Assembly (NCBI GenBank): GCA_964387845.1
Contig: CAYLXA010000009.1
Span: 42,098-106,097 of the forward strand
DNA length: 64,000 nt
Reading direction: 5' to 3'
Origin: an uncultured bacterium
GTDB taxonomy: Bacteria; Omnitrophota; Omnitrophia; Omnitrophales; Abzuiibacteriaceae
The notes below the pieces were generated by a model. That model was not told where the DNA came from, did not search any database, and saw only the letters and a program-made list of their open reading frames with translations. Below, piece by piece: positions 8,645 to 63,677 of the stretch (positions are counted from its first letter, which is position 1; every line of letters begins with the position of its first letter). A program made the position numbers and the translations under genes.

Positions 8645-8651
8645 GTTTTTA

Positions 8652-8679
8652 GTGATAAGTGATAAGTGGTAAGTGGTAA
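8652..8679. repeat. Four tandem heptamers in the 75-nt B-A spacer: GTGATAA x2 then GTGGTAA x2.
   Basis: Read directly: agtgataagtgataagtggtaagtggtaag. On the coding (minus) strand this is CTTACCA CTTACCA CTTATCA CTTATCA, ending about 10 nt before the A start codon. Confidence 0.7.
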
Positions 8680-8702
8680 GCAACTTAAAACTTACCACTT
8701 AC
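8669..8702. promoter_or_regulatory. Perfect 12-bp inverted repeat with a 10-nt loop between the stop of B and the start of A.
   Basis: gtaagtggtaag (8669..8680), loop caacttaaaa, cttaccacttac (8691..8702). The left arm overlaps the heptamer repeats. No U-tract follows on the transcribed strand, so it is not a canonical intrinsic terminator. Candidate RNA processing or regulatory stem, or a protein-binding site. Confidence 0.5.
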
Positions 8703-49364: not shown

Positions 49365-52300
49365 TTAGGCGCGCGATAGGACTATTTGGTATGAACGGAT
49401 GAATTGATCGATAGCTTCGACGGCTTTCCCAAGGCGGCCTCGGATACTGCTAATCATATCAGCCGTGAATAAAACAACGCTTGTGAAATAATCACTCAGT
49501 TCACTTCTCACGATTTCTGCCTCATGGCTTGAATCCGTAAAGTAAATGTTAGTCCGGATTCCCTTCGAACGCATGAGTTTGGCTAATTTTTCAGGCGTTG
49601 CGGCATATAAAATTTGTCTATCAATGGGAAGTGATGCATTGAGTTCATCGACAAAGCGAAGTTCGGAACGCGTGGGTGTTACAAATCCGATTCTCACATT
49701 CGACTGAGCTGCAATTTGAACATAATACGGCGCGAGCCCTTCATCGAACACAATGCTCCGCGCAAATACCCAGCCTTGGCTGGTACTATCGTGAATAAGT
49801 TTATCAGCAGCCATGGAGCGGTGAAGCTCGGAACGTAATCCGGGGTTTTGTTGAAGCTGGGTTCCAATGGCCTGATGCGCTTTTGTTAGAGATGAAAGCC
49901 TTGTATCAGTAATATTGAGGGCATCTTCTGCATTTAGCCTTTGGAAATCCGCGCTTGCTGTCCTTGAATTCCGAAGCTCGCTGCGGACTTTCCATGGATT
50001 GGACCTTTCCGGAGGATTTGTATACTTGTTACGTTCTGTTATTACTCGCTCAAGCCCTTCCTTTGCGCTATTGACAGCGGCCGACGCAGAAGCCCATTTG
50101 CTCGGATTAAGTAATTGCGTGCCATCCGGCTCTTCTGCAATTGGTGTTAAATGTTGAAGCTCGGCCCGCCGAAGATCGAGCTCTTTCTCTGCTAATGCGA
50201 CACGCGCATTTAAGATTGCTCCTTTTTGCTTGCTTGCTTCGGCTTCGGTCAATGCCGCCTGCGCTGCATTGAATGCTGCTTCAGCCGCGGCCACTTTGGG
50301 ATGAACTGTTTCAGTGCTTGCTCTTAATTCAGAACGCGATTCAAGAAATTGACGGTATGCTGCCAAGCTGGCAGATTCTGTGCGCGTATTGCCGTCTTTA
50401 ACAGTATCACCGGAAATATGCGCAAGCTGCTCACGCTCAAGCCAATCAAACACGATGCCGCCGGTTGAGATGTACCGATTCTTTACGCTTTCCGATTCTA
50501 ACGTTTCGCCGCCTTCGGTCCTGACGCGGACTTCATAGGAAGCAACAAAGGTCGGGTCGTTGGATGAAGCGCGAATCACGAAGCGCCCCGCCTCTTTCCC
50601 GGCTTCGTCTTTGAAGCGGATATCCGCAAACCGGTAAAGGCCGTCTTCGCCCTTGAAAGTTATGACTTCCCGGACTTTAAAAATACCGGCCGGCGATAAA
50701 AATTCTTTTTCTTTTGAGAATTCTTGAATTGCTTTTTCAACCGTCAGGTCACGGCCGAGCGCAATAATTTTCGGATTGGGTGTTGCTGTATCGCTATATT
50801 GATACCCCGTATCGTTGCGCGGATCTCCTGCCAATTTTTGCAAAAGCGACGCCTGAAACGGCGGTTGAAACCGCGTTGATTGTTTATAGGGTTTTGCATA
50901 ATGCTCGAATGCCGCTTCAAACGGAAATGGATTTTGTGTTTTGTGTTCTTGGGCGTATTGAGCAACTTGAATAACCGAAAGCACTGCCACTGCAATCGGA
51001 TTTTCGTATTCGCCGGTCACATCGAGCCACGCATGACCGGAGCGCTCGCTCAACATGGGGATACTGTAACCTTTCCCTTTTAATTCTTTGGCTTTTGCCT
51101 TCAAAAACGGGTAGCCGGAATCGGTTATAAATGTTTCAATTCCGTTTTCCCCGGCTGCATCTGCAACACCCAAAGTCGAAAGCACATCACTAATCACCGC
51201 CACATGCTCGGAGGAACGTGAATGATAACCGCCTCGATTAACCAAAAATGGGATGAGGATGGCCATTAAATTATCCGGCGGGAGCACAAGGAAACTGCCG
51301 TCCTTTCTCTTAATCACAATTGCTCCGCGATCGCCGTCCAAATCAAACGCGAGGCCGATATCAATATTTTCATCAGACATTTTGGTTCTTAATTCTTCAA
51401 GATTGGCCATAATAGACGGATCCGCTTTGTGCATTCCCGTAATCGACTGAACATCGCCGTTAATTAAAACGGCTTCGGCGCCCAAATTTTTGAATACAGC
51501 TTCCGCCAAATATCCGCTTGGTGTGTGGGCACCGTCAATCGCAATCCTAAGCCCTTCAAAGGGCTTTTGAAACATAACATACCCTGCGATCCGCTGCTCC
51601 CAATCTGATAATACTTTTTCCGGGAAATCACTCTTTCTCAATTGATCAGCCAAATTAAAAAGATTCGCCGCGCTACCTCCGATACCGGCAACTCGGCCAA
51701 CCAGCGTCGTTATGCGGACAGTATTAACATCTACGTTCAGCGCCCGGATATAACCTGACCTTTCGCCGGCATCGTGCACCATCCATCCGTAATCAGCCAT
51801 GTACTTTTGGACCATCGGAAGCGACACTGCTTTGATTTCTTGTGTCGTCAGACTCGCCAAGCGGCCTTCTTCGTCCTGTATGCTGACTTTTGCGCCGCGA
51901 ATTTCATCCGTGCTGGCCACATGGCTCGACGTCAGCAAAACACTGACGAGCGGCTGTATCTCGCGCACCGCCCAAGAATAAGAAGTTGCAGCATTCGGGC
52001 CGTCTTCTGCCGTATATACCACATCCAAACCTGCATATAAAAATCCTGCGGTCAAAGCTTCGACAAGTTCGGGTTCGATTTTGCGTGCATCGCGCGCAAT
52101 GACAACCGTTTCATTTTTAGAACCCGATTTCTTTGCCTTTTCAAACGCCATCCGTGCCCACGTAAGACCCCACAAAAACCAAAGCTTCGGCGACGGCGCA
52201 TGTTCTTTGTCTCGTGAACGGTAATCATAATCGCGCGCCATGAGTTTCACGAGCGTTTCATCTGCTTCGGTTGCCTTCATACGAATATATTTGGAGATCA

Positions 52301-55300
52301 GCTTCGTCGCATCCATCTCGGAAAGCCGTCTTAATTCGCTCCGTGCGGCAATTTCATTGCGCAAAGCTGAAAATGCACTGGATATTTTCTCGTTCAATTC
52401 CGAGACTTGCGCTGCGGTTCCGGCCGAAATCATTTCGGCCAGCTTTCCTTCCGCCTGAGAAGCGGCGGAACCTTGAAACTGCGACTGCAGCGACTGCCAT
52501 TTTTCCTGAATTTCCCTGGAACGTGCGTGGAGCTGCGTGGAAAGTTCTGAAAGCTCTTTCAAATTTTTTGATTCGATTTTTGTTTTCGCGGCAAGCTTGA
52601 CAATTTCCTGGAGTTTTTCCTCCCAATACCGGAAACCAAACAGCCATAATTTCCCGCTTTGAACTTTCAACGCCGCATCCAAATCACTCATTGCTTCGAT
52701 CGCCGCGCTAAACTCCGCATAAAACCGTTCGGCCGGATAAGGCGTAGCAGCAACTTCATGAAATGCGGCAGCGAACGGCTTTGCAACATTGTCCACCAAA
52801 GTTTTCAAGGCGGCTTCTTTTGCTTTTATGTCGGATTTGTCGCTATTGAGAGTTTTGCGTGCCGAAGGAAGCTCTGAAGACCTGACTGTATCGGTAACAA
52901 ATATCTGGACAGCGTCATTTTCAACCAAATCTCCCAAAACCTGCAGTTGCGGCATTGAGTGAGACTGGGCCGTATAAATACCCGTCAAAATATTTAACAA
53001 TTCTTTATCTTGGGCATCTTTCCAATCGACTGATAAGTTTGAAACAGAAATAGGCGTTTTGCCAATATGCCTAAATTTGCTGGTGATAAAAATTTTAATT
53101 TGGCTTTCGCTGATTTCAGGAGCTATTTTGTCAAATTCACCCGCACCAAAAGCTTGTTTAACAACAGCGGCCAAAACCTGCTTCAATGTATTCCGGCCAC
53201 CAACCTCCAATTTAAATTGCCGGACATTTCCGCGTATGTTGAGATTGATCACGAAATAAACCTTAGCACTTCCCTCGCCAAGCTTGGGTTGATTGGGCTG
53301 GATTACCGTTGTGCCGGCGGCAGGCTCTGAAGCATCCGGTTTAAAAGGTGATTCAAGCGTTACCGAATCTGCGCTTGGCGCTTTTACGGAAACTGAAATA
53401 ACGAACTTGGTCAAGCTGGCTTTAACAGGTTTGAGAGCCGGGCTGGCAGCAAATTCAACATCAGTCAAGACCGGTTTTGGCGCAGGTTTCTTGACTTCTT
53501 CTTTCTTATTTCCTTTAGCATCGTGATCGGCCTTGCGGGCTTCTTCAACTTCAACTTGCGGGACACTTCTTACCGCCTGAATGAATACAACACCGTGCAA
53601 AGACTGAAATTCTTCCAATGCCTCAATCATCGCCTCATCCCATTTCTCGGGGCGCACACCTTTCGCTAATTGATTCAGGAAATAAAGCCGGCCTTGATTG
53701 ACAGCATGAAGCTCTGAAATCGCATCCCAAATTTCGCCGATTTCTTTGACAACCTCCGGTGTAATCCTGATTTTACTGTCGGTCAACTTCTTTGCGATAT
53801 CATCCCTGAGCGCTTTTTCTTCGCGCAATTCCGAACGTCTTTCTTTTTTTGGCATCAAACTTAATTGGGGCAGCGAATCCCAAACCCAAACGGGAGCGTA
53901 AACATCTTCCTTCCACTCGTAAGTTCCTTGCAATCCCTCAATTGTATCCACCACATGGCTTTCTTCATGACCAGCACCAGGCTCCACGATTAGATCAAAA
54001 TCTTCGTGTGTTTCTAGAATTTTTACAGCCATGTCGATGAAATGCGGTTCATTGGCAAGATTTATATAGGTATCCCGAACTGCTTGCTGGGTGGCTGTTA
54101 TCAAATGCTGTTCTTTTAATTTCTGTTGAATCAGCTTGATTGTAATATTCCGCTTCAATTTATTGATCGCCCCTTTAACAACCGGCCTGTTGTCAAATAA
54201 AGTAACAAACTCGGGTCTCTGCTCTGTAATAGGACGTGATTCCATGTGACTGCCACCATACGGAGCCAAACCATGCTTTGCCTCGTAGCCATCTTGCTCA
54301 GGCCAAACTTCAACGTTTTCAAATTCGCCTGTTTCTACTGTTATCAAAGTTTCTACACGCCTGAAATCATCTTTTAGCTTCTCCAAATGCGGCAAAGCAC
54401 GGTCATCTTCAAGATGCCCCAAAGCAATAACCGCAAGCCGGCGAGTTTCTGGATCATGTGAAGACAGGTTTTGGATTAAAACGTCATAAATAGAATCAAT
54501 TTTTCTAATTACTATTTCAATCTCTTTTGAATTCCTACTATTCGCTAACCTATTAATCAATTGCAGTATGCTCCTCAATTGATCCAGCGAATACTGATTA
54601 ATCGCCTTCGGCAACCCCCACTTTAATAAGTTTGACACGTCTACTTTCTTATAAACCAATGTGTTGACTAACATATCGATCGCTTGCTTGATTGATTTTC
54701 GCTCCAAATCTTCAAACCTCCGAAGCGCGGTACGCACAGATGACCATGAGCCTATAGTTTGCCAAAAAGCGGTCCAAGTTAATTTACTCGCCCTTAATTC
54801 AGACCTCGCAAGAATTTCGAGAACCGCAGCACCGCTATCAAGATCAGCTGCTTGCAGAATTTGGTCGCCCGTAAATGGTGCTTTGCCTGCGTCTTTGGCA
54901 TAATGCACCAAATATTCGAAACCCGCTTGGCGCGCACCTTCGAATGCATCCGGGTCGTTATCAATCAAAACCGTGTTCCGGGCGTCTTCGCCTATCACAG
55001 ACCTGAATCGTTCCAGAACCTTATCGAAAAATTCGGGGGCTTTGCCTTTCTTCATGCCCAATTCGGATGAGAGGATCACCAGCCGGGGATCAAACAAATT
55101 TCCGTAGTGCTTCTTCAAAAACCGAAGTAAATGTTCTTTGCCTGCCAATTCGAAATTCACCACCACGCCGATATGGACGCCGTTATCTTTGATGGCCAAA
55201 AGTTTCTCGATCACTTGCTTGATGGCGGGATTTTCCGGACGCTCTCCGAAAAAAATGTCTTTAAATTCATCCTCGCTGAGCCCTTTAAATCCGTCCTTTT

Positions 55301-58300: not shown

Positions 58301-61300
58301 AAAGGCGCGGCTGCGTGCCTTCCAGAGCCGTAACATCATGCTGATAAGGTTTATAGACAATATAAAAAGGGATGCTTCCTAACAGAACGACGCCGAGCGC
58401 AATTCTGAGAACGCTCATTTTCCGCGCGCGTGTCCAGAACGGCTTGCGCCCAGTTTCTGCTCTTAATTCCGAGCGGCTGAAAATGCCCGGCGTTACAAGC
58501 TCCGCTTCGCGGTTGTAGCGAAGCAGATCGGCCGCCAGGATTTTGTTGCCTTCGTAAGTTTCCAGCGTCACCCACAATTCATTGTCTGTTACGGGCCTTC
58601 CCAAAGCCTTTTCCATGGCCGCACGCGCTTCGTCAACCTCAGCTGGCGATTTCGTCCAATTTTTGGTAGATAGGAAGCGCATGCCTGCAAGATGAGGAAT
58701 TCTTTCTTCCCATGAAAGTTTTAAATACTCTTCGATCGGAAGATTCCGGACCCCTTTAACACCAACAGCCGCAATTTTCATATCAGGGCCTGCAACACCC
58801 GTTGACTGCCACATGTTGGTTTCGGCTTTCACCACAACCGCATTGCCTGACTTAGCCGGCTTGGCATCTAAAATGCGCGGGAACTTCCGGCGGCCGCGCT
58901 CGGCAATGGCTTCACGCTCGGCCGGTGTTGCCCCGCGCAGTTCTTCGATGAATTCCCTGTCCGCTTGACCATCCTGTTTATAAAGGCCTATCACATAGCG
59001 CGGCGTAAAAAATGCGACGGCATCGTTAAACCAATAAGAATCAGTGGGCTTTACAACATCACGGTTTGCAACCTGCTTTTTAACTTCTTCATCGGCGCTG
59101 GAAACAATGTCGTTGGTGATATTGATATTCGGGTCTTCGGCAAGCTGATGAGCGCCGTTGTCTTCCATAATGATTAAGCTGCCGCCTTTTTGTCCGGGCG
59201 CGCGCGGCGAAACTTCCGGCTGGAAATCGAGCTCGCGATCGAGGAAAAGCCCCAGGGTTCTCAGCCAAACTTTGTCAAATTTGGATGCGTAATTGTCCAC
59301 ATTCTTGACGAAGGCCCACTTTACACCGGCGTCAACCATACGCAAAAGCTCGCCGCTTACAATCATTTGATGAAAATACTCGCCGTGCCCCAAAGGATCC
59401 CGCTCGCCTTCAAAAACAACAGCGTTTGTGTCACCGCTCGCTAATTTTTCCTTTACTTCATTAGATCTTGCGAGCGCCGCTTGAAAAGTTTCATCAGATG
59501 TGAATTTGCTGCGCATTTTTTCCACTTTTTCCGGTTTTTCAACAAACTTGGCGCCGAGCGGCTGATGGAAAAATCCGACTTGTTCGTTGTGCAGGCCGTA
59601 ATGACGATTTTTTCCGAGCATTTCGTCGTGTTCCGGCCGGTATTCATCATTCGAAAGAAATCCGATTAGATTTTCCCACACCTTTGTGACCGGCATTCCG
59701 GCATTCCTTACCTCTTCAGCAACCGCACGGAAAAGCCGGGAAAGATTTTCGCCGAACTCACCGAAATAGGTTGTCACCTTTCCATCGCTTGTGCGCCCGA
59801 TAGGCACAGCCGCTTTTGATAAAATTTCGCCGTCTACGTCCATAGCCAGCACTTCTTCGGGCGCTTCTTTGGTGTTCATGCGTGAGCTTGCGCCCGCAAC
59901 CAGCATCGAAATATAGCCTTCGCCTCTATCCAGTGACTTGACGGCGATAGCTTCAAGCCGCAGGGCTTCCTGCGGGTCAATTTCTGTAATATCAAACACA
60001 TCTTCTTTGCGGCTCGCGCGGAACGGACGCGAAATCGGTGTAGTTGCCAATTCCCCCCGCCAATAAGCCAATCCGGTCTCAACTTCGCTTCTTAACTCCG
60101 AGCGTGAAGCTTCAAAACGGCTCAAATCAAGCGAGCCGGTGGCGAGAGCCGCCGCCGCTCCTCCCGCATCTTTGGATTTCTTGAATGTGCCCTCAACGAT
60201 GAAAGAAAGCGCCCCGAGATTTCCGGTATTTTGAACCGTCAGCTTGGGATGGCCATTCGTCAGTCTAATGTCACGAATATCGCTCAGCGTTACTTCCAGC
60301 TTACTATCTATTCGATCCGGCTTGAGCAGAGTGTCCTGAGTCGCGGTAGAACGCAAAGCATTCCGCACCGCACTTTTAATGGCTTGAGACAAACTCTTTT
60401 TTGTAAACTCCCGCTTTCGGCCTTCATCAGCTAAGGTCAATTCCGTGATTTTAACTGCAGATTCGTCCTCTGCTTTTTCTGATTGCCTGAGCTCTGCACG
60501 AGATTTAGCAGCAATTACTTTTACATTAATGAGAACGTTACGCGGCAGTGTGTTGATGGAAACGGTTGTCCGTGCCGGTTGGTCGCTTTCGGGTGGAAAG
60601 GTTGTTTTCCATATGGAGTTATACTCCGGAAAATCTCTTGCCATATCCGAAAGAGATACTCGCACCGCTAAGATGTTTTCCCACGAGGACCCCTCTTTTT
60701 CTAGCTGGGTCCGGATATTTTGAATGGCCGCTTGAACCTGCGCCCCGATTCCTTCCGCTCTGATCTCGCCATTGTCATTCTCAGGACCTACGGCCTCTAA
60801 AACAACAAGCTCGGCGGGTAATGACTCCGGCACTTTGGCAATTGCATTAACTTCAAATGCGATCGGCGTCGGCAGCGCAACGACTTCGATAATCGTGTGC
60901 TTGGGTTCATGGCCGACTTGTTTGAAATGCTCTGCCCAAACACGTTCAAATATCGCGCGCTCATCATCGTTATAATCTGTGAGAAACACTTCCATTTCCG
61001 TAATTGCCTTCCATGTAACACCCGCTGCTTCCAGAATAAATTCAACATTGGCAAAGGTTGAACGCATTTGGGTTGCAATATCACGTGAAAGAACTTTGCC
61101 TTTGTCATCTTGATGAACGCCTGGAATTCGGTCTGAACCAAGCTTGCGAGGGCCAACACCTGAAAGAAAAAGATGATCTTGAAACCGTCTGGCATGAGGG
61201 TATGCCCCAACTGCTTTCGGGGCGCGATCGCTATTGATTGCTTCGCCAATCCGCGGTTCAGCGCGACGAGGTTTTTCTCGATCTCTTATTCGCAATCTTT

Positions 61301-63677
61301 CATTCAAATCTTCATGGATTGACTTGTATCTTCTTTCCAATTTTCTCACTTCACTACCTGCCATATCCACTGCATGGGCTTGATGAGGATCGCGAAAAGG
61401 TCCATCACTTGCTTGCACCGTCATCAACCAATTCGCTCTTGCATTATTAAGTTGTCGTTCAACTTGAAACAGTTCTGCTTGAAGCTCAGCTATGCGATCG
61501 CTGCGCAGCTCGGCTCTGGCTTTGGTTGAAGGAGAAAACGAGAGAATGGGAGAATAATATATATTATTTAAACTTAATAAATAATTGATAAATAATAAAT
61601 ATTGTGGTAAGCTAGCGGCCGTAATGAAATCGAATGGCTTATTAACCGAATCGAAGCGTGACTTTATCCAGCGGTTTATGCTTAACCTGCTTTGCATTAT
61701 TGCTGCATCCGCCCTGGCTAGCAATTTCTTTACAGCAATGCCATTGGGTGTTAGGATTTGTCTTGGCAGTGGCGCTTTAGTTGCTCTTGTGATCGGATTT
61801 TTTATCAAATAAGGAGGAAATAACAATGTTTGGAGCACTGCTTGTACTATCCATGACTTTGATATGCGCTGCCATAATGATCGTTGATTACTATCAACGA
61901 AAGCACCGCCGTCATCACTCCTGATTTTTCCCGTTTCAGCGTTTTCCCGAAGTTCGGAACGGTCAATAGGCACAACTTTTGCCAGGTAATTTCTAGGAGG
62001 AATACGGAATGTGAGCGAATCTTCTATCGTTGGATGTTCAAAAACAAATTGATAATCTTGCCTCATGTTTTTGATTAACCATGCTTCTCTTACAAGCTCT
62101 CTTAGATTTGTGTGGCCCCAATCCAGAAAATGATACACGCCGGGGTCCTGCTTATGGGCATCAGTATATAACTTTATAACTGCTTCAATGGTAAATTGAA
62201 TCCATTCTTCCAGTTCTTGTGGATCTTTCAAACTCGCCGTCAAAGGACGTACAACCTGCCGTAAACTACGTCGTGGGATTCGAATGCCTGCCATATTAAT
62301 CTCGTTCTTCATGCGCCAGACGATAGGTTCAACGTCACGGTTTAGCATCACAAAATAAGTAACAAAACTTCCCACTGCACCGATACCCAATAGGCCTATG
62401 TGCCAGTTTTTCAGTAGAGAATCTGCTACTTCTGAGATTTGACGCAACTCGGAGCGGGATTCTCCAGCGCTAGGCGATTCCGCCAAAATGCGCGGCGGAT
62501 CCGTCTTTCTTTGTGGCGGAAAGTGATAGGCGTTAGGTTGTTTTGATTCACTTAACGTTTGACGCTTATCACTTAACGCTAGATTCGGAAGCCCGAGAAG
62601 CTCCCGAAATTCGGAGCGTTGAGCAGCTTTTACGAGTTCATAGCTACCGGCAAAAACAAAGCCAAGCGCGATAAACACAGAGGCTTTTGAAGTCGAGCTC
62701 ACATCCGGAATGAAGCTGTTCAGTATTTTGTTTACCAGATAGAGCAACATTGCAAATGGTATTGCAAGAACCATCGTCTCAAGGTCACTTCTTCTAAAAG
62801 CGCCGCCAGCGCTCCTAATTTTCCTCGTTTTAGTGCCTTCCCGAAGCCCAGACCTATCCTCAGACAAAATAGTTTGACTACCAGCTTCTTGCCCTGCCGG
62901 AACAACCAACACCTTTTGATATACCGTCGAAACGCTCCAGCCGCCTGTGCTCTCTTCCTGCAGTTCCAGTTTGTAACCTTGGTTCTTAAGCGCCCAGGCT
63001 TGCTCTAAAATCTCGCTGAGATAATGCTCTAACCCGTAAAAATTTCTAGAAAAGAAAGGCCCTCTTTTCTCTGCATGTAAAAGTACGTCGAGCTCAACTA
63101 GAAATTCGGTTACAAATTCATCAAACGCAAATTCGTTTGCTGACGGTTCGCTCTGCATTTTATTTTTGATAAACTCGGCCCCTTTTTGAACAACGAATCT
63201 GGGCAGGCGGCGGGATCTTCCATAATCATACAAACTTTTGTCTAGCCTATTTTCAATATTTCTGAGACGGCTAGCTTTACTCTTCGCCATCGCCAAGGCA
63301 ACGAGCACTGTAAATGCGCCTGACGCAAAAGCAGCCATCAGCATGAAGACCGAAACATCCGAAACGCGTAACTCGGAGCGGGATTTATCAATTGCGGAGT
63401 GCGAAGTGTCAAATGCGGATTGATCGCTTCCATTCCGCATTCCCTGCCTAGCCGGCAGGCGGGCGAAATCCGCATTCCGCACTGGAAGCCCGAGAAGCTC
63501 GCGGAGTTCAGAACGGCCTACAATGGAGGCGGCTAATTTCTTGGGAGTAACGGTGTTTAAACTTTTAAATGCGGAAATAACGGACGGTGCATCCGAGTAA
63601 GCAACGGAATTGGTAAAAGAAAAAGCAAGGACGAGCGTTAATGCGAGAGATTTTGTGAGAAATCGATTGAATTTCAC
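49365..63677 (-). CDS. Giant mosaic polyprotein E, 4770 aa, built from hexose-phosphate and UDP-sugar metabolism modules.
   Basis: ORF-track ORF. GTG start at 63675..63677 with AAAGAGG about 10 nt upstream. TAA at 49365..49367. Leader (M)KFNRFLTKSLALTLVLAFSFTNSVAYSD. Confidence 0.85.
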   Translation of the reverse strand: MKFNRFLTKSLALTLVLAFSFTNSVAYSDAPSVISAFKSLNTVTPKKLAASIVGRSELRELLGLPVRNADFARLPARQGMRNGSDQSAFDTSHSAIDKSRSELRVSDVSVFMLMAAFASGAFTVLVALAMAKSKASRLRNIENRLDKSLYDYGRSRRLPRFVVQKGAEFIKNKMQSEPSANEFAFDEFVTEFLVELDVLLHAEKRGPFFSRNFYGLEHYLSEILEQAWALKNQGYKLELQEESTGGWSVSTVYQKVLVVPAGQEAGSQTILSEDRSGLREGTKTRKIRSAGGAFRRSDLETMVLAIPFAMLLYLVNKILNSFIPDVSSTSKASVFIALGFVFAGSYELVKAAQRSEFRELLGLPNLALSDKRQTLSESKQPNAYHFPPQRKTDPPRILAESPSAGESRSELRQISEVADSLLKNWHIGLLGIGAVGSFVTYFVMLNRDVEPIVWRMKNEINMAGIRIPRRSLRQVVRPLTASLKDPQELEEWIQFTIEAVIKLYTDAHKQDPGVYHFLDWGHTNLRELVREAWLIKNMRQDYQFVFEHPTIEDSLTFRIPPRNYLAKVVPIDRSELRENAETGKIRSDDGGAFVDSNQRSLWQRISKSWIVQAVLQTLLFPPYLIKNPITRATKAPLPRQILTPNGIAVKKLLARADAAIMQSRLSINRWIKSRFDSVNKPFDFITAASLPQYLLFINYLLSLNNIYYSPILSFSPSTKARAELRSDRIAELQAELFQVERQLNNARANWLMTVQASDGPFRDPHQAHAVDMAGSEVRKLERRYKSIHEDLNERLRIRDREKPRRAEPRIGEAINSDRAPKAVGAYPHARRFQDHLFLSGVGPRKLGSDRIPGVHQDDKGKVLSRDIATQMRSTFANVEFILEAAGVTWKAITEMEVFLTDYNDDERAIFERVWAEHFKQVGHEPKHTIIEVVALPTPIAFEVNAIAKVPESLPAELVVLEAVGPENDNGEIRAEGIGAQVQAAIQNIRTQLEKEGSSWENILAVRVSLSDMARDFPEYNSIWKTTFPPESDQPARTTVSINTLPRNVLINVKVIAAKSRAELRQSEKAEDESAVKITELTLADEGRKREFTKKSLSQAIKSAVRNALRSTATQDTLLKPDRIDSKLEVTLSDIRDIRLTNGHPKLTVQNTGNLGALSFIVEGTFKKSKDAGGAAAALATGSLDLSRFEASRSELRSEVETGLAYWRGELATTPISRPFRASRKEDVFDITEIDPQEALRLEAIAVKSLDRGEGYISMLVAGASSRMNTKEAPEEVLAMDVDGEILSKAAVPIGRTSDGKVTTYFGEFGENLSRLFRAVAEEVRNAGMPVTKVWENLIGFLSNDEYRPEHDEMLGKNRHYGLHNEQVGFFHQPLGAKFVEKPEKVEKMRSKFTSDETFQAALARSNEVKEKLASGDTNAVVFEGERDPLGHGEYFHQMIVSGELLRMVDAGVKWAFVKNVDNYASKFDKVWLRTLGLFLDRELDFQPEVSPRAPGQKGGSLIIMEDNGAHQLAEDPNINITNDIVSSADEEVKKQVANRDVVKPTDSYWFNDAVAFFTPRYVIGLYKQDGQADREFIEELRGATPAEREAIAERGRRKFPRILDAKPAKSGNAVVVKAETNMWQSTGVAGPDMKIAAVGVKGVRNLPIEEYLKLSWEERIPHLAGMRFLSTKNWTKSPAEVDEARAAMEKALGRPVTDNELWVTLETYEGNKILAADLLRYNREAELVTPGIFSRSELRAETGRKPFWTRARKMSVLRIALGVVLLGSIPFYIVYKPYQHDVTALEGTQPRLLTPQEIEKRRPRRPAPEAIAPEMSPSFRHPTTSRKSIDTGKIRITSEWTPVFGDWKAIYKNYIVVFKNSAGKQFEVVPDAHGTPVFENEKRVGNVFSSAQTGNEVYFVSRSELHEPNWLAIAGLLVFSVGGIFGILLWPDIVSWLRRNHSTKDNSHLPDSRSELRKMDTEAIAAETAEAKILAEKLTTPLDAKGNAEMAARFLKGGYDQDGYGVPEGAAIHGSFAVKGTQGYYSEDVNPETGRTGQQEFVDGVNRLKKFFIKREERLGKPIKLIIKTGIGGQHTPFQGIADVFQVVDPASGDILGEYELGKDYEKALENIVDEKQISWDQIAVIPSSKSGSTDETMMIFSEIFYVLLKKVAQEKTNLEPDFMSDAKAHPDIQKFADTVFNTLHDINFVDGKERSARDLFKIDEVRFRKSSLIQIIAKKMNGVMGEAKVKEIFATVLGNMFFETTDRPAESRLSAFIRNSGLDKVLGDDAPGFGAMFDNVGGRWTGDLHMMTFLAYHRLNPLEYWIGRNSAIKRGGNSGEEIGNRILNDEISDVALIVPNHLFWFAKSVEQNFNESIWQKGFANLVAIRERDWQKQPQWRRFFKQPNRLVINLADIQMPPVGFNVFDIDELNLGQSSKIKKADKQFIADQIGKLFSIFYTATTVVGNRLIARALKEKGFSVNDVNLNDLDNPATKIVQENLYTRQPYVELGKKLLESWLQDLQMADAVEHEFALTQQKAKELSVNPVFGGQAFRASISLEEGISWQNTDRLSNLIKKAMDYADQSGRKFVPFIYLDGDKFVNLKKYLVDFGIEWVIQGTGDQHISYQQVLANPDKFLPFFVSFVPEQGKESKGLPAIGFAKGYLHNVSPHMVRDMFAEASFGALVNNRKDQGGEGVFLRLTDDIYHAQVLRSAFRKAAQARSELRNALDSNAMFIDFGGVLADERSPAFAELVAKGLIVKSGLRKEDLSGDDFNKLKNLLVPHKDDPIREALYTDPDAFYPWFESIREFLSQKDGFKGLSEDEFKDIFFGERPENPAIKQVIEKLLAIKDNGVHIGVVVNFELAGKEHLLRFLKKHYGNLFDPRLVILSSELGMKKGKAPEFFDKVLERFRSVIGEDARNTVLIDNDPDAFEGARQAGFEYLVHYAKDAGKAPFTGDQILQAADLDSGAAVLEILARSELRASKLTWTAFWQTIGSWSSVRTALRRFEDLERKSIKQAIDMLVNTLVYKKVDVSNLLKWGLPKAINQYSLDQLRSILQLINRLANSRNSKEIEIVIRKIDSIYDVLIQNLSSHDPETRRLAVIALGHLEDDRALPHLEKLKDDFRRVETLITVETGEFENVEVWPEQDGYEAKHGLAPYGGSHMESRPITEQRPEFVTLFDNRPVVKGAINKLKRNITIKLIQQKLKEQHLITATQQAVRDTYINLANEPHFIDMAVKILETHEDFDLIVEPGAGHEESHVVDTIEGLQGTYEWKEDVYAPVWVWDSLPQLSLMPKKERRSELREEKALRDDIAKKLTDSKIRITPEVVKEIGEIWDAISELHAVNQGRLYFLNQLAKGVRPEKWDEAMIEALEEFQSLHGVVFIQAVRSVPQVEVEEARKADHDAKGNKKEEVKKPAPKPVLTDVEFAASPALKPVKASLTKFVISVSVKAPSADSVTLESPFKPDASEPAAGTTVIQPNQPKLGEGSAKVYFVINLNIRGNVRQFKLEVGGRNTLKQVLAAVVKQAFGAGEFDKIAPEISESQIKIFITSKFRHIGKTPISVSNLSVDWKDAQDKELLNILTGIYTAQSHSMPQLQVLGDLVENDAVQIFVTDTVRSSELPSARKTLNSDKSDIKAKEAALKTLVDNVAKPFAAAFHEVAATPYPAERFYAEFSAAIEAMSDLDAALKVQSGKLWLFGFRYWEEKLQEIVKLAAKTKIESKNLKELSELSTQLHARSREIQEKWQSLQSQFQGSAASQAEGKLAEMISAGTAAQVSELNEKISSAFSALRNEIAARSELRRLSEMDATKLISKYIRMKATEADETLVKLMARDYDYRSRDKEHAPSPKLWFLWGLTWARMAFEKAKKSGSKNETVVIARDARKIEPELVEALTAGFLYAGLDVVYTAEDGPNAATSYSWAVREIQPLVSVLLTSSHVASTDEIRGAKVSIQDEEGRLASLTTQEIKAVSLPMVQKYMADYGWMVHDAGERSGYIRALNVDVNTVRITTLVGRVAGIGGSAANLFNLADQLRKSDFPEKVLSDWEQRIAGYVMFQKPFEGLRIAIDGAHTPSGYLAEAVFKNLGAEAVLINGDVQSITGMHKADPSIMANLEELRTKMSDENIDIGLAFDLDGDRGAIVIKRKDGSFLVLPPDNLMAILIPFLVNRGGYHSRSSEHVAVISDVLSTLGVADAAGENGIETFITDSGYPFLKAKAKELKGKGYSIPMLSERSGHAWLDVTGEYENPIAVAVLSVIQVAQYAQEHKTQNPFPFEAAFEHYAKPYKQSTRFQPPFQASLLQKLAGDPRNDTGYQYSDTATPNPKIIALGRDLTVEKAIQEFSKEKEFLSPAGIFKVREVITFKGEDGLYRFADIRFKDEAGKEAGRFVIRASSNDPTFVASYEVRVRTEGGETLESESVKNRYISTGGIVFDWLEREQLAHISGDTVKDGNTRTESASLAAYRQFLESRSELRASTETVHPKVAAAEAAFNAAQAALTEAEASKQKGAILNARVALAEKELDLRRAELQHLTPIAEEPDGTQLLNPSKWASASAAVNSAKEGLERVITERNKYTNPPERSNPWKVRSELRNSRTASADFQRLNAEDALNITDTRLSSLTKAHQAIGTQLQQNPGLRSELHRSMAADKLIHDSTSQGWVFARSIVFDEGLAPYYVQIAAQSNVRIGFVTPTRSELRFVDELNASLPIDRQILYAATPEKLAKLMRSKGIRTNIYFTDSSHEAEIVRSELSDYFTSVVLFTADMISSIRGRLGKAVEAIDQFIRSYQIVLSRA
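49368..50430 (-). other. C-terminal coiled-coil plus conserved C-terminal region of E, with at least five RSELR-type sites.
   Basis: ...KVRSELRNSRTASADF...GLRSELHRS...SIVFDEGLAPYYVQIAAQSNVRIGFVTPTRSELRFVDELNASLPIDRQILYAATPEKLAKLMRSKGIRTNIYFTDSSHEAEIVRSELSDYF...QIVLSRA*. Confidence 0.4.
50430..52120 (-). other. Module in E: alpha-D-phosphohexomutase (phosphoglucomutase/phosphomannomutase).
   Basis: ETVVIARDARKIEPELVEALTAGFLYAGLDVVYTAEDGPNA (~52085..52110), LLTSSHVAST (the phosphoserine-loop position), IAIDGAHTPSGY, GLAFDLDGDRGAIV (~51325..51350), PMLSERSGHAWL. Confidence 0.85.
54380..54480 (-). other. HEAT/PBS-lyase-like repeat in E.
   Basis: SHDPETRRLAVIALGHLEDDRALPHLEKLKDD. Confidence 0.35.
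54870..55560 (-). other. Module in E: HAD-superfamily phosphatase/hydrolase.
   Basis: MFIDFGGVLADERS (the DxG/D motif I-like FDxxGVL, ~55510..55550), HIGVVVNFELAGKEH, VLIDNDPDAFEGARQAGFEYL. Confidence 0.55.
55900..57750 (-). other. Module in E: glucose-6-phosphate isomerase family (SIS domains), divergent.
   Basis: KLIIKTGIGGQHTPFQGIADVFQ (~57420..57480), AVIPSSKSGSTDETMMIF (~57270..57310, the SKSGTT-ET signature), FDNVGGRWTGDLHMMTF (~56820..56860, GGR[YF]S-like). Confidence 0.7.
58700..59990 (-). other. Module in E: UDPGP-family nucleotide-sugar pyrophosphorylase-like (UTP-glucose-1-phosphate uridylyltransferase type).
   Basis: ISMLVAGASSRMNT (~59880..59930, compare L-N-G-G-L-G-T-x-M-G) and YFHQMIVSGELLRMVDAGVKWAFVKNVDNYASKFD (~59285..59330, compare NIDNLGA). 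Confidence 0.5.
60470..61240 (-). other. Modules in E: two tandem RidA/YjgF (endoribonuclease L-PSP) family domains.
   Basis: Copy 1: RAPKAVGAYPHARRFQDHLFLSGVGPRKLGSDRIPG...EMEVFLTD...HTIIEVVALPTPIAFEVNAIAKV (~60840..61240). Copy 2: ELVVLEAVGPENDNGEIRAEGIGAQVQAAIQNIRTQLEKEGSSWENILAVRVSLSD...TTVSINTLPRNVLINVKVIAA (~60470..60830). Confidence 0.75.
61561..61625. other. A 65-nt island of more than 85% AT inside the E coding frame that stays open in frame.
   Basis: gaataatatatattatttaaacttaataaataattgataaataataaatattgtggtaagc encodes SLPQYLLFINYLLSLNNIYYS. Contains -10-like TATAAT/TAATAT strings on both strands. Confidence 0.5.
61900..63150 (-). other. Internally duplicated module of unknown function in E (two copies, each ending ...TGKIRS-x-GGAF), plus TM helices.
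   Basis: Copy a: EFVTEFLVELDVLLHAEKRGPFFSRNFYGLEHYLSEILEQAWALKNQGYKLEL...TKTRKIRSAGGAFRRSD. Copy b: LEEWIQFTIEAVIKLYTDAHKQDPGVYHFLDWGHTNLRELVREAWLIKNMRQDYQFVFE...ETGKIRSDDGGAFVDSN. A third degenerate echo sits near 58300. Confidence 0.45.
63366..63380 (-). other. Example RSELR site in E (codons CGC TCC GAG TTA CGC).
   Basis: Plus strand gcgtaactcggagcg. Reads KSRSELRVSDVSV. Confidence 0.9.
63570..63677 (-). other. Leader of E: conserved Sec-like leader.
   Basis: (M)KFNRFLTKSLALTLVLAFSFTNSVAYSDAPSVISAF. First RSELR at about residue 56 (GRSELRELLGLP). Confidence 0.6.

What the first reader, a model, noticed from the sequence alone, without database searches (positions are those of the whole stretch)
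49365..63677. Polyprotein E is a hexose-phosphate/UDP-glucose toolkit with internal duplications
Three modules, PGI-family, phosphoglucomutase and UDPGP-family pyrophosphorylase, form the G6P to G1P to UDP-glucose route. A HAD phosphatase, two tandem RidA domains, HEAT repeats and several TM helices sit alongside them. An unknown roughly 110-aa module is duplicated near the N-terminus, with each copy ending TGKIRSxGGAF. The pairing ELLGLP follows RSELR twice (RSELRELLGLPV and RSEFRELLGLPN).
Basis: partly seen in the sequence, partly recalled or inferred. Interest (0 to 1): 0.55.

Follow-up and report, generated by a model that had tools for sequence, protein, structure and literature searches.

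The report
Bacterial metabolic polyprotein punctuated by RSELR
A 4,770-residue gene from an uncultured Omnitrophota bacterium strings complete sugar-phosphate enzymes together, separated by the five-residue motif RSELR, and looks like a virus-style polyprotein that is cut into separate enzymes, which has not been described for bacterial housekeeping metabolism.

Summary

The "110-aa duplication" is a tandem duplication of a roughly 295-aa N-terminal unit (z=13.7). That unit includes the leader, which explains the two RSE(L/F)RELLGLP strings.

The main finding is the organising principle. RSELR-type pentapeptides occur 65 times in the five giant ORFs of the window, with synonymous codon variation. 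None of the 56 sites in ORFs A, B, D and E falls inside a mapped domain (P=6e-11). Their spacing matches the ends of free-standing homologues. In related genomes they mark the exact breakpoints of shuffled modules.

Other Omnitrophota lineages carry different motifs (ASSLG, AARLA, SSSP[LV], KDGG) at the same module boundaries. A TIKI-superfamily protein (ORF C here) is the first module of many such giant ORFs.

My best reading is a polyprotein processed at RSELR, possibly by the TIKI-like protein. Cleavage itself is unproven.

The parts
49365..63677 (-). ORF E, 4,770 aa, GTG start with an AGAGG-like ribosome-binding site upstream. Built as leader, about 20 RSELR-delimited segments and a conserved C-terminal cap.
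62796..63659 (-). Duplication unit 1 (aa 7-294): signal-like leader, RSELRELLGLPV, spacer, RSELR, TM helix, orphan ~130-aa domain, RSGLR (degenerate site), TRKIRSAGGAF.
   Evidence: no homologues found
61899..62780 (-). Duplication unit 2 (aa 300-593): internal leader-like hydrophobic stretch, RSEFRELLGLPN, spacer, RSELR, TM helix, orphan domain, RSELR, TGKIRSDDGGAF.
   Evidence: z=13.7 against shuffles
60501..61517 (-). Segment 7 (aa 721-1059): coiled N-terminal part followed by two tandem RidA/YjgF (Ribonuc_L-PSP) domains.
   Evidence: E=3.9e-39, 2 stretches
60105..60500 (-). Segment 8 (aa 1060-1191): orphan 132-aa module.
   Evidence: no family
58476..60104 (-). Segment 9 (aa 1192-1734): UDPGP-family nucleotide-sugar pyrophosphorylase module. 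It has a 61%-identical orthologue in L093, bounded by RSELR on both sides but with different neighbours.
57822..58475 (-). Segments 10 and 11 (aa 1735-1952): two small single-helix membrane segments of 167 and 51 aa. The second begins with the variant RSELH.
55575..57821 (-). Segment 12 (aa 1953-2701): PGI-fold double-SIS module. It belongs to an Omnitrophota/Elusimicrobiota family of about 700-aa 'hypothetical proteins'.
54807..55574 (-). Segment 13 (aa 2702-2957): HAD-IA-like module resembling YihX, with motif I DFGGV and motif IV DNDPD.
   Evidence: sequence
53838..54806 (-). Segment 14 (aa 2958-3280): HEAT-repeat module.
52344..53837 (-). Segment 15 (aa 3281-3778): orphan 498-aa module.
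   Evidence: no family
50337..52343 (-). Segment 16 (aa 3779-4447): alpha-D-phosphohexomutase (PGM/PMM/GlmM superfamily) module carrying TSSH, DLDGDR, ERSGH and RASSNDP.
   Evidence: sequence
49836..50336 (-). Segments 17 and 18 (aa 4448-4614): small orphan segments upstream of the cap.
49368..49835 (-). Conserved C-terminal cap of about 150 aa (aa 4615-4770). It is shared by ORFs A, B, D and E and by polyproteins in related genomes, and ends ...SRA/RAA.
63501..63515 (-). RSELR site 1 (aa 55), the leader site followed by ELLGLPV.
63366..63380 (-). RSELR site 2 (aa 100).
62604..62618 (-). RSEFR site 3 (aa 354), the internal leader copy followed by ELLGLPN.
62442..62456 (-). RSELR site 4 (aa 408).
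61947..61961 (-). RSELR site 5 (aa 573).
61503..61517 (-). RAELR site 6 (aa 721).
60486..60500 (-). RAELR site 7 (aa 1060).
60090..60104 (-). RSELR site 8 (aa 1192), N-terminal boundary of the UDPGP module.
58461..58475 (-). RSELR site 9 (aa 1735), C-terminal boundary of the UDPGP module.
57960..57974 (-). RSELH site 10 (aa 1902).
57807..57821 (-). RSELR site 11 (aa 1953), N-terminal boundary of the PGI-like module.
55560..55574 (-). RSELR site 12 (aa 2702), boundary between the PGI-like and HAD modules.
54792..54806 (-). RSELR site 13 (aa 2958).
53823..53837 (-). RSELR site 14 (aa 3281).
52329..52343 (-). RSELR site 15 (aa 3779), N-terminal boundary of the PGM module.
50322..50336 (-). RSELR site 16 (aa 4448), C-terminal boundary of the PGM module.
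49971..49985 (-). RSELR site 17 (aa 4565).
49821..49835 (-). RSELH site 18 (aa 4615).
49656..49670 (-). RSELR site 19 (aa 4670), inside the conserved cap.
49494..49508 (-). RSELS site 20 (aa 4724), inside the cap. This is the weakest variant and may not be a true site.
39676..41250 (-). ORF C (524 aa), the only ordinary-sized gene in the window and free of RSELR. It is a TIKI/Ere/ChaN/TraB-superfamily protein with invariant H74, E102 and H467. Its stop overlaps the start of polyprotein B. Candidate processing peptidase.
41289..49076 (-). Polyprotein D (2,595 aa, glutamate dehydrogenase module, 18 motif sites), same leader and cap.
26148..39689 (-). Polyprotein B (4,513 aa, 9 sites): methyltransferases, MeaB + methylmalonyl-CoA mutase + B12-binding, biotin carboxylase + carboxyltransferase.
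8720..25876 (-). Polyprotein A (5,718 aa, 9 sites): 3-hydroxyacyl-CoA dehydrogenase, methylmalonyl-CoA mutase, acyl-CoA synthetase, HpcH-type lyase, MaoC dehydratase, acyl-CoA dehydrogenase.
2..8698 (-). Polyprotein F (at least 2,899 aa, runs off the left edge): same leader, 9 RSELR sites.

Best explanation
ORF E is a genuine gene of an uncultured Omnitrophota bacterium. It encodes a polyprotein precursor, not one working 4,770-residue enzyme.

Architecture: a Sec/SRP-type signal-like leader comes first. About 20 segments follow, each separated by the pentapeptide R-[S/A]-E-[L/F]-[R/H]. A conserved C-terminal cap of about 150 aa ends the protein.

Several segments are complete proteins in their own right. 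These are a PGI-fold sugar-phosphate isomerase, a phosphohexomutase, a UDPGP-type nucleotidyltransferase, a YihX-like HAD phosphatase, a double RidA, a HEAT protein, small single-helix membrane proteins and lineage-specific orphans.

Proposed mechanism (inferred, not shown): a site-specific endopeptidase cuts at or next to each RSELR. This releases the enzymes in fixed 1:1 stoichiometry, and RSELR-delimited cassettes can be shuffled between polyprotein genes. The most likely peptidase is the TIKI-superfamily protein encoded by ORF C. It lies next to polyprotein genes in this lineage and is fused as the first module of the giant ORF in many other Omnitrophota. This identification is weaker than the cleavage hypothesis itself.

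The released sugar enzymes would interconvert F6P, G6P and G1P and activate or dephosphorylate G1P. Substrate specificities are inferred from family membership only.

The N-terminal 'internal duplication' is a tandem copy of the whole leader-containing head unit.
For: Shown:
1. Motif frequency. Exact RSELR occurs 42 times in ORFs A, B, D and E against 0.03 expected. Counting variants and a sixth ORF gives 65 sites. The codons vary synonymously (CGN and AGR for Arg, TCN and AGY for Ser, CTN and TTR for Leu), so selection acts on the peptide, not the DNA.
2. Placement. 0 of 56 sites fall inside Pfam- or family-matched stretches that cover 34% of residues, P=6e-11. Only the five motif positions are conserved.
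3. Match to free-standing proteins. Segment 12 is co-extensive with 31 separately called homologues. Their median start is 3 aa after RSELR and their median end is 1 aa before the next RSELR.
4. Cassette behaviour. The UDPGP module is 61% identical to one in L093. The alignment starts exactly at RSELR and ends at the next RSELR in both genomes, while the flanking sequence is unrelated. The same holds for three modules of B against L091, where B's content is split into two genes.
5. Specificity to polyproteins. The motif is absent from ORF C and from ordinary-sized ORFs in L091 and L093.
6. Other lineages. Different pentapeptides sit on both flanks of the same PGI-like module and are 30- to 130-fold enriched: ASSLG, R[SA]EVR, AARLA, SSSP[LV], KDGG.
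7. Shared ends. All giant ORFs here share a leader and a C-terminal cap.
8. Internal initiation is not supported. Met follows the motif no more often than background, 28% against 26%.

Candidate peptidase:
- H74, E102 and H467 are invariant, and there are sub-threshold PF04187 hits.
- In 19 of 25 loci the C module is the first module of the same giant ORF as the PGI-like module.
- TIKI-family members Tiki and RRSP are sequence-specific endopeptidases (PMC6254334).
Against: - No direct evidence of cleavage exists. No proteomic data were available and no paper found mentions such sites.
- A published reading treats such Omnitrophota ORFs as intact membrane-anchored multi-enzyme proteins.
- Two motif copies (aa 4670 and 4724) lie inside the conserved cap, and one (aa 573) lies inside the duplicated unit. 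Not every copy is therefore a clean inter-protein junction.
- Signal-like leaders on classically cytoplasmic enzymes, and on ORF C itself, leave open on which side of the membrane cleavage could occur.
- Many giant Omnitrophota ORFs show no enriched motif.
- Homologous PGM-PGI-like fusions of about 1,290 aa have no motif at their junction.
- TIKI-superfamily members also include esterases and a haem-binding protein, so ORF C need not be a protease.
Confidence: 0.6

Rival explanations
1. E works as one intact, membrane-anchored multi-enzyme megaprotein (a covalent metabolon). RSELR is then a linker-embedded short linear motif used for docking, regulation or flexibility, not for cleavage.
For: The published interpretation of Omnitrophota 'multi-enzyme metabolic cluster' giants is as intact inner-membrane-anchored proteins. 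E has a leader and several hydrophobic helices. Uncleaved fusions of the same modules exist elsewhere, for example PGM-PGI-like proteins of about 1,290 aa without a motif. Some motif copies sit inside conserved units.
Against: - A docking or regulatory motif would not need to sit at every module boundary and nowhere else.
- It would not need to coincide with the ends of free-standing homologues.
- It would not be expected to be replaced by chemically unrelated pentapeptides such as ASSLG or KDGG at the same boundaries in other lineages.
- Alternating membrane topology would place cofactor-dependent enzymes on both sides of the membrane if the chain stayed intact.
- Segments as short as 45-55 aa delimited by the motif make little sense as domains of a megaprotein.
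Confidence: 0.25
2. Separate proteins are produced without a protease. The motif would mark ribosomal peptide-bond skipping (2A-like) or sites of internal translation initiation or re-initiation within a stop-less operon.
For: Co-linear complete proteins without stop codons need some way to be separated. SD-like strings are slightly more frequent near sites, 18% against 10%.
Against: - Met is not enriched after the motif, 28% against 26%.
- Only five residues are conserved, with no upstream conservation. Known 2A skipping needs a longer nascent-chain element ending NPGP (general knowledge).
- Unrelated motifs in other lineages would each need their own ribosome effect.
Confidence: 0.05
3. The motif reflects a DNA- or RNA-level element, such as a recombination or integration scar or an RNA-processing site, that happens to translate as RSELR.
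For: Module shuffling breakpoints coincide exactly with the motif.
Against: All synonymous codon families are used at every position, including both six-fold families for Arg, Ser and Leu. There is therefore no conserved nucleotide string. The breakpoint coincidence is equally expected if only rearrangements that keep a functional junction survive.
Confidence: 0.05
4. The giant ORF is an artefact: an assembly chimera, a frame error, or a string of decaying pseudogenes.
For: The window comes from metagenome-derived sequence.
Against: - 14.3 kb without a stop codon, next to four more such ORFs on the same strand.
- The identical protein is on an independent Logan contig.
- Related genomes from JGI, ENA and NCBI share the architecture.
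- The modules keep family-invariant residues.
Confidence: 0.02

Closest known systems
Omnitrophota giant 'multi-enzyme metabolic cluster' proteins (Nielsen & Lui 2026, bioRxiv 10.64898/2026.06.07.730766) and Archaeovorin or Dockerin-type giants (West-Roberts et al. 2023, bioRxiv 10.1101/2023.11.21.568195)
   Same: Same phylum. Many unrelated Pfam families tile a single ORF. The sugar-metabolism content includes PGM, HAD and HEAT. A signal peptide or TM helices are present. West-Roberts et al. already suspected post-translational cleavage.
   Different: [quoted passage not shown] They suspect C39 or S8 peptidase domains. Here there is a defined punctuation pentapeptide, a shared leader and cap, cassette shuffling at the motif, and a TIKI-like head module. 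E is 4.8 kAA, below their 10-kAA catalogue threshold.
Viral polyproteins (picornavirus, potyvirus or coronavirus type) processed by a virus-encoded site-specific protease
   Same: Complete proteins are joined by short conserved junction motifs. The junction sequence is lineage-specific. A candidate protease is encoded with, or at the head of, the polyprotein. Stoichiometric co-expression follows (general knowledge).
   Different: This is a cellular chromosome, not a virus. The cargo is housekeeping central metabolism. The candidate protease is TIKI-like, not chymotrypsin- or papain-like. Cleavage is not demonstrated.
MARTX toxins (multifunctional autoprocessing repeats-in-toxin)
   Same: They are bacterial proteins of several thousand residues that carry several independent effector domains released by proteolysis. 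One effector, RRSP, is a TIKI-family site-specific endopeptidase (PMC6254334).
   Different: MARTX are secreted toxins processed in the host cell by an internal cysteine protease domain. In MARTX the TIKI domain is cargo, not the processing enzyme. They have no RSELR-type punctuation and no metabolic enzymes.
Plastid-targeted polyproteins of Euglena and dinoflagellates (LHC, RbcS) joined by conserved decapeptide linkers
   Same: They are cellular polyproteins whose units are separated by a short conserved linker removed by an endopeptidase (from my own knowledge, not checked here).
   Different: They are repeats of the same protein, are eukaryotic, and are linked to organelle import. Here the units are different enzymes in a bacterium.
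Glucose-6-phosphate isomerase (PGI, PF00342) and other double-SIS sugar-phosphate isomerases
   Different: No sequence model detects it. It is 749 aa, with about 370 residues outside the PGI core. The equivalent of the catalytic Lys is uncertain, because the His-to-Lys spacing is 38 aa against about 125 aa in PGI.

Membership tests
Phosphoglucose isomerase (PGI, PF00342) | Significant match to the family's sequence models | tested here: not met
   Pfam gave nothing at E<=10. NCBIfam PRK03868 gave E=0.082, 11.7 bits against a cutoff of 487. phmmer and a 32-sequence profile against PDB gave nothing. hhalign against E. coli Pgi gave probability 0.9%.
Phosphoglucose isomerase (PGI, PF00342) | Double-SIS PGI fold | tested here: met
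Phosphoglucose isomerase (PGI, PF00342) | Catalytic Glu, His, Lys and Arg | tested here: inconclusive
   Invariant co-linear motifs suggest R332 (GGRWT), E404 (NES) and H652 (GDQH). K690 is doubtful because the spacing differs. No residue-level superposition was available.
alpha-D-phosphohexomutase (PGM/PMM/GlmM) | Domains I-III detected above Pfam gathering scores | tested here: met
   PF02878 30.0 bits against 22.5, PF02879 36.5 against 29.3, PF02880 22.8 against 20.7.
alpha-D-phosphohexomutase (PGM/PMM/GlmM) | Domain IV (PF00408) and equivalog-level assignment of substrate | tested here: not met
   PF00408 was not reported. The NCBIfam PgmG, GlmM and PMM/PGM models all score about 57-72 bits, far below cutoffs of 439-618. 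Specificity is unresolved.
alpha-D-phosphohexomutase (PGM/PMM/GlmM) | Active-site Ser loop, metal loop DxDxDR, sugar loop ExSGH, phosphate loop | tested here: met
   Read directly in the translation: TSSHVAS, FDLDGDR, SERSGH, RASSNDP. The Ser loop is atypical (SSHV, not ASHNP).
UDPGP (UTP-glucose-1-phosphate uridylyltransferase family, PF01704) | Match above the Pfam gathering score | tested here: met
   39.3 bits against 22, E=4.4e-10, but only profile positions 163-250 of 413. The orthologous module in L093 also carries PF01704. There was no NCBIfam hit.
RidA/YjgF/L-PSP (PF01042) | Match above the gathering score, two copies | tested here: met
   133.8 bits against 27.3, two stretches.
HAD-IA phosphatase (YihX-like) | Match to HAD models and motifs I-IV | tested here: inconclusive
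   There is no Pfam hit. Seven NCBIfam matches (six to HAD-type models) are all below their cutoffs, E 2e-5 to 0.09. BLASTP against E. coli YihX gave E=9e-7 across motifs II-IV. Motif I is DFGGV (DxG, as I recall for YihX). The motif II Ser/Thr is not evident.
HEAT repeat | Match above the gathering score | tested here: met
   HEAT_2 29.3 bits against 27.7. This is marginal.
Processed polyprotein | Several complete, independently viable proteins in one ORF | tested here: met
   Segment 12 equals free-standing homologues end to end. Modules occur in other combinations in relatives.
Processed polyprotein | Conserved junction motif restricted to boundaries | tested here: met
Processed polyprotein | Demonstrated proteolytic cleavage at the junctions | not testable with these tools
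   No proteomic data were accessible. No literature was found.
Processed polyprotein | Dedicated protease | tested here: inconclusive
   The candidate is TIKI-like ORF C. No Pfam peptidase domain was found in ORFs A-E.
TIKI/TraB/Ere/ChaN superfamily (ORF C) | TIKI alpha/beta core fold | tested here: met
TIKI/TraB/Ere/ChaN superfamily (ORF C) | 2His/2Glu catalytic set | tested here: inconclusive
   H74, E102 and H467 are invariant, and the H74-E102 spacing of 28 aa equals that of RRSP H3902-E3930. The residue two positions before H74 is Asp (D72), nearly invariant, where RRSP has Glu-3900. There was no structural superposition of side chains.
Omnitrophota 'multi-enzyme metabolic cluster' giant proteins (Nielsen & Lui class 1) | Omnitrophota origin, many distinct Pfams with none dominating, signal peptide or TM content, length at least 10 kAA | tested here: inconclusive
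   Origin, architecture and membrane features are met. The length of 4.77 kAA is below their catalogue cutoff.

The most novel reading that the evidence does not exclude
A clade of Omnitrophota encodes much of its central metabolism as polyproteins. Each is built as leader, RSELR-delimited enzyme cassettes and a cap. A co-evolving TIKI-family endopeptidase processes them. In sister lineages that peptidase is the first module of the polyprotein, and the junction motif has drifted to ASSLG, AARLA, SSSP[LV], KDGG and other forms. If so, the record-size 'giant proteins' of this phylum are precursors and not functional megaproteins, and polyprotein gene expression is not confined to viruses and a few eukaryotic cases.
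Probability: 0.45. Interest if true: 0.92.

Novelty: new variant of a known kind. Interest (0 to 1): 0.8.

Why it matters
Two recent studies of Omnitrophota giant genes left open whether the products act as one chain or are cut, and one states that cleavage points are unknown.

A short boundary-restricted motif that is selected at the peptide level gives concrete, testable cleavage coordinates. Here these are the 65 RSELR-type sites, with analogous motifs in other lineages. A conserved TIKI-like head module gives a candidate enzyme.

If cleavage is confirmed, four things follow:
- Claims about the largest known proteins would need re-reading.
- Giant ORFs could be split informatically for annotation and structure prediction.
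- Bacteria would be shown to use virus-like polyprotein expression for housekeeping pathways, with cassette shuffling at the junctions.
- A new protease and site pair would be available for synthetic 'fuse-and-cleave' designs.

Independently of cleavage, segment 12 defines a PGI-fold family that no sequence model detects. This may explain apparent PGI gaps in Omnitrophota metabolic reconstructions.

Tried and rejected
- A homologue search with the whole 4,770-aa protein timed out.
- The word-indexed protein search never returned E itself or other giant ORFs, so it probably under-samples them.
- Sequence-level tests for PGI all failed: Pfam at E<=10, phmmer and profile against PDB, hhalign against E. 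coli Pgi. Only the fold comparison worked.
- A metagenome scan with segment 12 found no relative above 57% identity, so no orthologue of E as a whole was recovered.
- The duplicated N-terminal domain has no detectable homologues and no family hit.
- A profile of the C-terminal cap found only 8 proteins among 1.8 billion representatives, and one of them (P0069) is a false positive on Calx-beta-like repeats.
- BLASTP of E against itself at E<=1e-3 missed the internal duplication. It needed a restricted pairwise comparison and a shuffle test.
- No Pfam peptidase domain was found in ORFs A-E, so an embedded classical protease was not found.
- Literature searches for RSELR, Omnitrophota or Omnitrophica plus polyprotein, and bacterial giant-protein cleavage motifs found nothing relevant.
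- Internal translation initiation was rejected.
- A DNA-level repeat was rejected because of codon diversity.
- The cap as a protease was considered and set aside. No conserved catalytic-type residues stand out across the relatives.


Full report
**What is there.** The finding's coordinates are exact. Window 49365..63677 on the minus strand is a single 4,770-aa ORF with a GTG start and an AGAGG-like ribosome-binding site upstream. The identical protein is called on an independent Logan assembly contig. It is not alone. The same strand carries giant ORFs A (8720-25876, 5,718 aa), B (26148-39689, 4,513 aa) and D (41289-49076, 2,595 aa). A sixth ORF, F (2-8698, at least 2,899 aa), runs off the left edge. 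One ordinary gene, ORF C (39676-41250, 524 aa), sits among them.

**The organising feature.** Reading the translation shows the pentapeptide RSELR recurring between recognisable enzymes.
- Exact RSELR occurs 42 times in the 17,600 residues of A, B, D and E, against 0.03 expected from composition. With the close variants KSELR, RAELR, RSELH and RSEFR there are 56 sites, 20 of them in E. ORF F adds 9.
- Every synonymous codon family is used at each position: CGN and AGR, TCN and AGY, CTN and TTR. The peptide is what is conserved, not a DNA repeat.
- Only the five motif positions are conserved. The flanks show just a mild preference for small residues.
- None of the 56 sites falls inside Pfam- or family-matched stretches, which cover 34% of the residues (P=6e-11).
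- ORF C and the ordinary-sized ORFs of related loci have no copy.

**Module identities in E** (segments cut at the motif).
- aa 721-1059: two RidA/L-PSP domains, E=3.9e-39.
- aa 1192-1734: UDPGP, 39.3 bits against a cutoff of 22, partial coverage.
- aa 2958-3280: HEAT_2, marginal.
- aa 3779-4447: PGM_PMM domains I-III, all above their gathering scores. The translation shows TSSH, DLDGDR, ERSGH and RASSNDP. NCBIfam scores the PGM/PMM and GlmM models alike and far below their cutoffs, so substrate specificity is open.
- aa 2702-2957: no Pfam hit, seven sub-threshold NCBIfam matches (six of them to HAD-type models), and a pairwise match to E. coli YihX (glucose-1-phosphatase) with E=9e-7 over motifs II-IV.
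- Hydrophobic helices lie at aa 110-128, 301-319, 427-445, 1756-1774 and 1911-1929, plus the leader.
- The remaining segments (aa 100-720 outside the helices, 1060-1191, 3281-3778 and 4448-4614) hit nothing.

**The 'PGI' module.** Segment 12 (aa 1953-2701) has no Pfam hit even at E<=10 and no PDB sequence hit alone or as a 32-sequence profile. hhalign against E. coli Pgi finds nothing.
- Its relatives are about 700-aa 'hypothetical proteins' of Candidatus Omnitrophota and some Elusimicrobiota, roughly 50% identical. Some are fused to PGM, transaldolase or 6PGD/6PGL. This fixes the organism and is suggestive context.
- An AlphaFold model built on the alignment is confident (pLDDT 87, pTM 0.90).
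- Foldseek returns only glucose-6-phosphate isomerases in the top 45 or so hits.
- Family-invariant motifs run in the PGI order: GIGGQ, SKSGSTDET, GGRWT, QNFNES, GTGDQHISYQ, GFAK. Arg, Glu and His equivalents are probably kept.
- The Lys assignment is doubtful, because the His-to-Lys spacing is 38 aa against about 125 aa in PGI.
- I file it as a PGI-fold protein that works like a sugar-phosphate isomerase, not as a member of PF00342.

**The internal duplication.** aa 157-294 aligns with aa 466-593 at 26% identity, E=5e-6. The co-linear repeat really spans aa 7-294 against 300-593, with z=13.7 against 1000 shuffles. The leader, domain and tail parts are each separately significant.
- Each unit reads: hydrophobic leader, RSE(L/F)RELLGLP, spacer, RSELR, TM helix, orphan domain of about 130 aa, RS(G/E)LR, then (T)xKIRSx(x)GGAF.
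- The motif 'R[SA]ELRxL[LVM]GLP' is the first junction of the conserved leader in the sister polyproteins as well. A has SAEVRDLLGLA, P0070 has SELRSLVGLPA, and an L091 ORF has RAELRRLMGLS.
E carries a second, internal copy of a polyprotein head.
- The orphan domain has no detectable homologues.

**Shared ends.** A, B, D, E and F all begin with a signal-like leader of the form ..F(S/T)FT(N/S)S(V/I)AYS(D/E)... A, B, D and E all end in a conserved alpha/beta cap of about 150 aa. F runs off the window edge, so its end is not seen. A profile of the cap finds only eight proteins among 1.8 billion cluster representatives. Three are this window's own ORFs, four are related polyprotein-like proteins that carry the cap at their C-terminus, three of which also show RSELR-type sites, and one is a false positive. 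The lineage is rare in public data.

**Evidence that RSELR-delimited segments are the functional units.**
1. The 31 separately called homologues of segment 12 start a median 3 residues after the RSELR and end a median 1 residue before the next one.
2. Relatives found through ORF C show the same system with different module combinations. L091 is a JGI 525-kb contig whose C is 86% identical. L093 is from Candidatus Omnitrophica CG11, with C 63% identical.
3. The UDPGP module of E is 61% identical to residues 100-645 of an L093 polyprotein. The alignment begins exactly at RSELR and ends at the next RSELR in both, while the sequence outside is unrelated. L093 reads leader|UDPGP|glutamate dehydrogenase.
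4. Three modules of B behave the same way against L091, where B's content is split between two genes.

**Generality.** Loci sampled only through the PGI-like family show that this module often lies inside ORFs spanning the whole 22-kb locus.
- Several lineages have their own boundary peptides on both flanks of the module: A[AS]SLG, R[SA]EVR, A[AS]RLA, ASSP[VL], KDGG and (S/K)LASN.
- Tetrapeptide enrichments are 30- to 130-fold, for example ARLA 14 against 0.33, KDGG 10 against 0.19 and RSEV 8 against 0.06.
- Many giant ORFs show no such motif, so this is not universal.

**A candidate processing enzyme.** ORF C has no family assignment at threshold. Its homologues are found throughout Omnitrophota, with invariant H74 (IQDAH), E102, R121, E154, E249, R439 and GG-x-H467.
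- Nine of 32 members hit PF04187 ('Tiki superfamily, ChaN') below threshold.
- The H74-E102 spacing equals that of the His-Glu pair in RRSP. RRSP and Tiki are sequence-specific endopeptidases of this superfamily (PMC6254334).
- C-family modules occur in 25 of the loci chosen only for the PGI-like module. In 19 of them the C module is the first module of the same stop-to-stop giant ORF.
- In the RSELR lineage C is a separate gene wedged between polyprotein genes, and its stop overlaps the start of B.
- This is association plus fold, not proof.

**Mechanism.** I think E is most likely translated as a precursor and cut at RSELR into about 20 products. Among them, the PGI-fold isomerase, the phosphohexomutase, the UDPGP-type transferase and the YihX-like phosphatase would handle the F6P/G6P/G1P/UDP-sugar node.
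- Shown: the architecture, motif statistics, boundary restriction, cassette behaviour and module families.
- Inferred: cleavage, the protease and the substrates.
- Internal initiation is not supported, since Met follows the motif in 28% of cases against 26% background.
- A nucleotide-level element is excluded by codon diversity.
- The main rival is an uncleaved membrane-anchored megaprotein, which is the published view of such ORFs. It does not explain why chemically unrelated pentapeptides mark the same boundaries in different lineages, or why motif-delimited pieces of 45-55 aa exist.

**Open problems.**
- Signal-like leaders sit on classically cytoplasmic, cofactor-dependent enzymes and on ORF C. 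The side of the membrane where cleavage would occur is unknown.
- Two motif copies lie inside the cap and one inside the duplicated unit.
- The cap's function is unknown.

**Novelty.** Giant multi-enzyme ORFs in Omnitrophota are published. One paper suspects cleavage but states that cleavage points are unknown. The other does not mention cleavage, motifs or polyproteins. No paper in the searchable library mentions RSELR or Omnitrophota polyproteins.
- E as an object is another member of that class.
- The punctuation motif, the leader-and-cap frame, shuffling at the motif, the lineage-specific motif variants and the TIKI-like head are, as far as I can tell, new.
- Together they make the cleavage question directly testable.

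Noticed in passing
window 2-8698 (minus strand): A sixth giant ORF (at least 2,899 aa) runs off the left edge of the window. It has the same signal-like leader (..FAFTFSSSMAYSD..) and 9 RSELR sites. About 62 of the 64 kb are polyprotein-coding on one strand.
   Followed up: partly
window 39676-41250 (minus strand), ORF C: This is the only ordinary-sized gene, with no RSELR. It has a TIKI/Ere/ChaN/TraB-superfamily fold and invariant H74, E102 and H467. Its stop overlaps the start of polyprotein B by 14 nt. Homologues form the first module of giant ORFs in 19 of 25 other Omnitrophota loci.
   Followed up: yes
loci L003/L063/L072 (ASSLG), L051 (R[SA]EVR), L049 (R[AS]EAR), L079/L087/L039 (A[AS]RLA), L023/L033/L044 ([AS]SSP[LV]), L040/L074 (KDGG), L002/L062/L064 ((S/K)LASN): Other Omnitrophota lineages carry different strongly enriched short peptides in their giant ORFs, and in most of these loci the peptide flanks the PGI-like module. 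Several other giant ORFs (L006, L010, L005, L037) show none.
   Followed up: partly
window 8720-25876 (A), 26148-39689 (B), 41289-49076 (D): The neighbouring polyproteins are thematically coherent. A holds acyl-CoA metabolism: 3-hydroxyacyl-CoA dehydrogenase, methylmalonyl-CoA mutase, acyl-CoA synthetase, HpcH-type lyase, MaoC dehydratase and acyl-CoA dehydrogenase. B holds an IcmF-like MeaB + mutase + B12 block, biotin carboxylase + carboxyltransferase and methyltransferases. D holds glutamate dehydrogenase with many small membrane segments and 18 motif sites.
   Followed up: partly
window 49368-49835, 26151-26720, 41292-41780, 8723-9220 (minus strand): A conserved C-terminal cap of about 150 aa ends every complete giant ORF (..SRA/RAA stop). 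Only 8 proteins among 1.8 billion representatives match its profile. Its function is unknown.
   Followed up: partly
L091 11613-11969: In the closest relative (C 86% identical), a 118-aa gene with bAvd/23S_rRNA_IVP Pfam hits lies between the C orthologue and the next polyprotein gene. bAvd is the accessory protein type of diversity-generating retroelements. The window has no counterpart of this gene.
   Followed up: no
L091 and L093 against window B and E: Module content is reshuffled between close relatives. B's modules are split into two genes in L091. UDPGP is joined to glutamate dehydrogenase in L093. PGK+PGM, enolase and PPDK modules each sit in their own RSELR polyproteins.
   Followed up: partly
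E aa 1-30, 110-128, 301-350, 427-445, 1756-1774, 1911-1929; leaders of A, B, D, F and ORF C: There is a topology paradox. Sec-type signal-like leaders and interspersed TM helices precede classically cytoplasmic, cofactor-dependent enzymes. An intact chain would place enzyme blocks on alternating sides of the membrane.
   Followed up: no
tool behaviour: The word-indexed protein search did not return E itself or any giant ORF for a query taken from E, although E is in the collection. Giant proteins seem to be under-represented in that index, which can hide polyprotein relatives.
   Followed up: no
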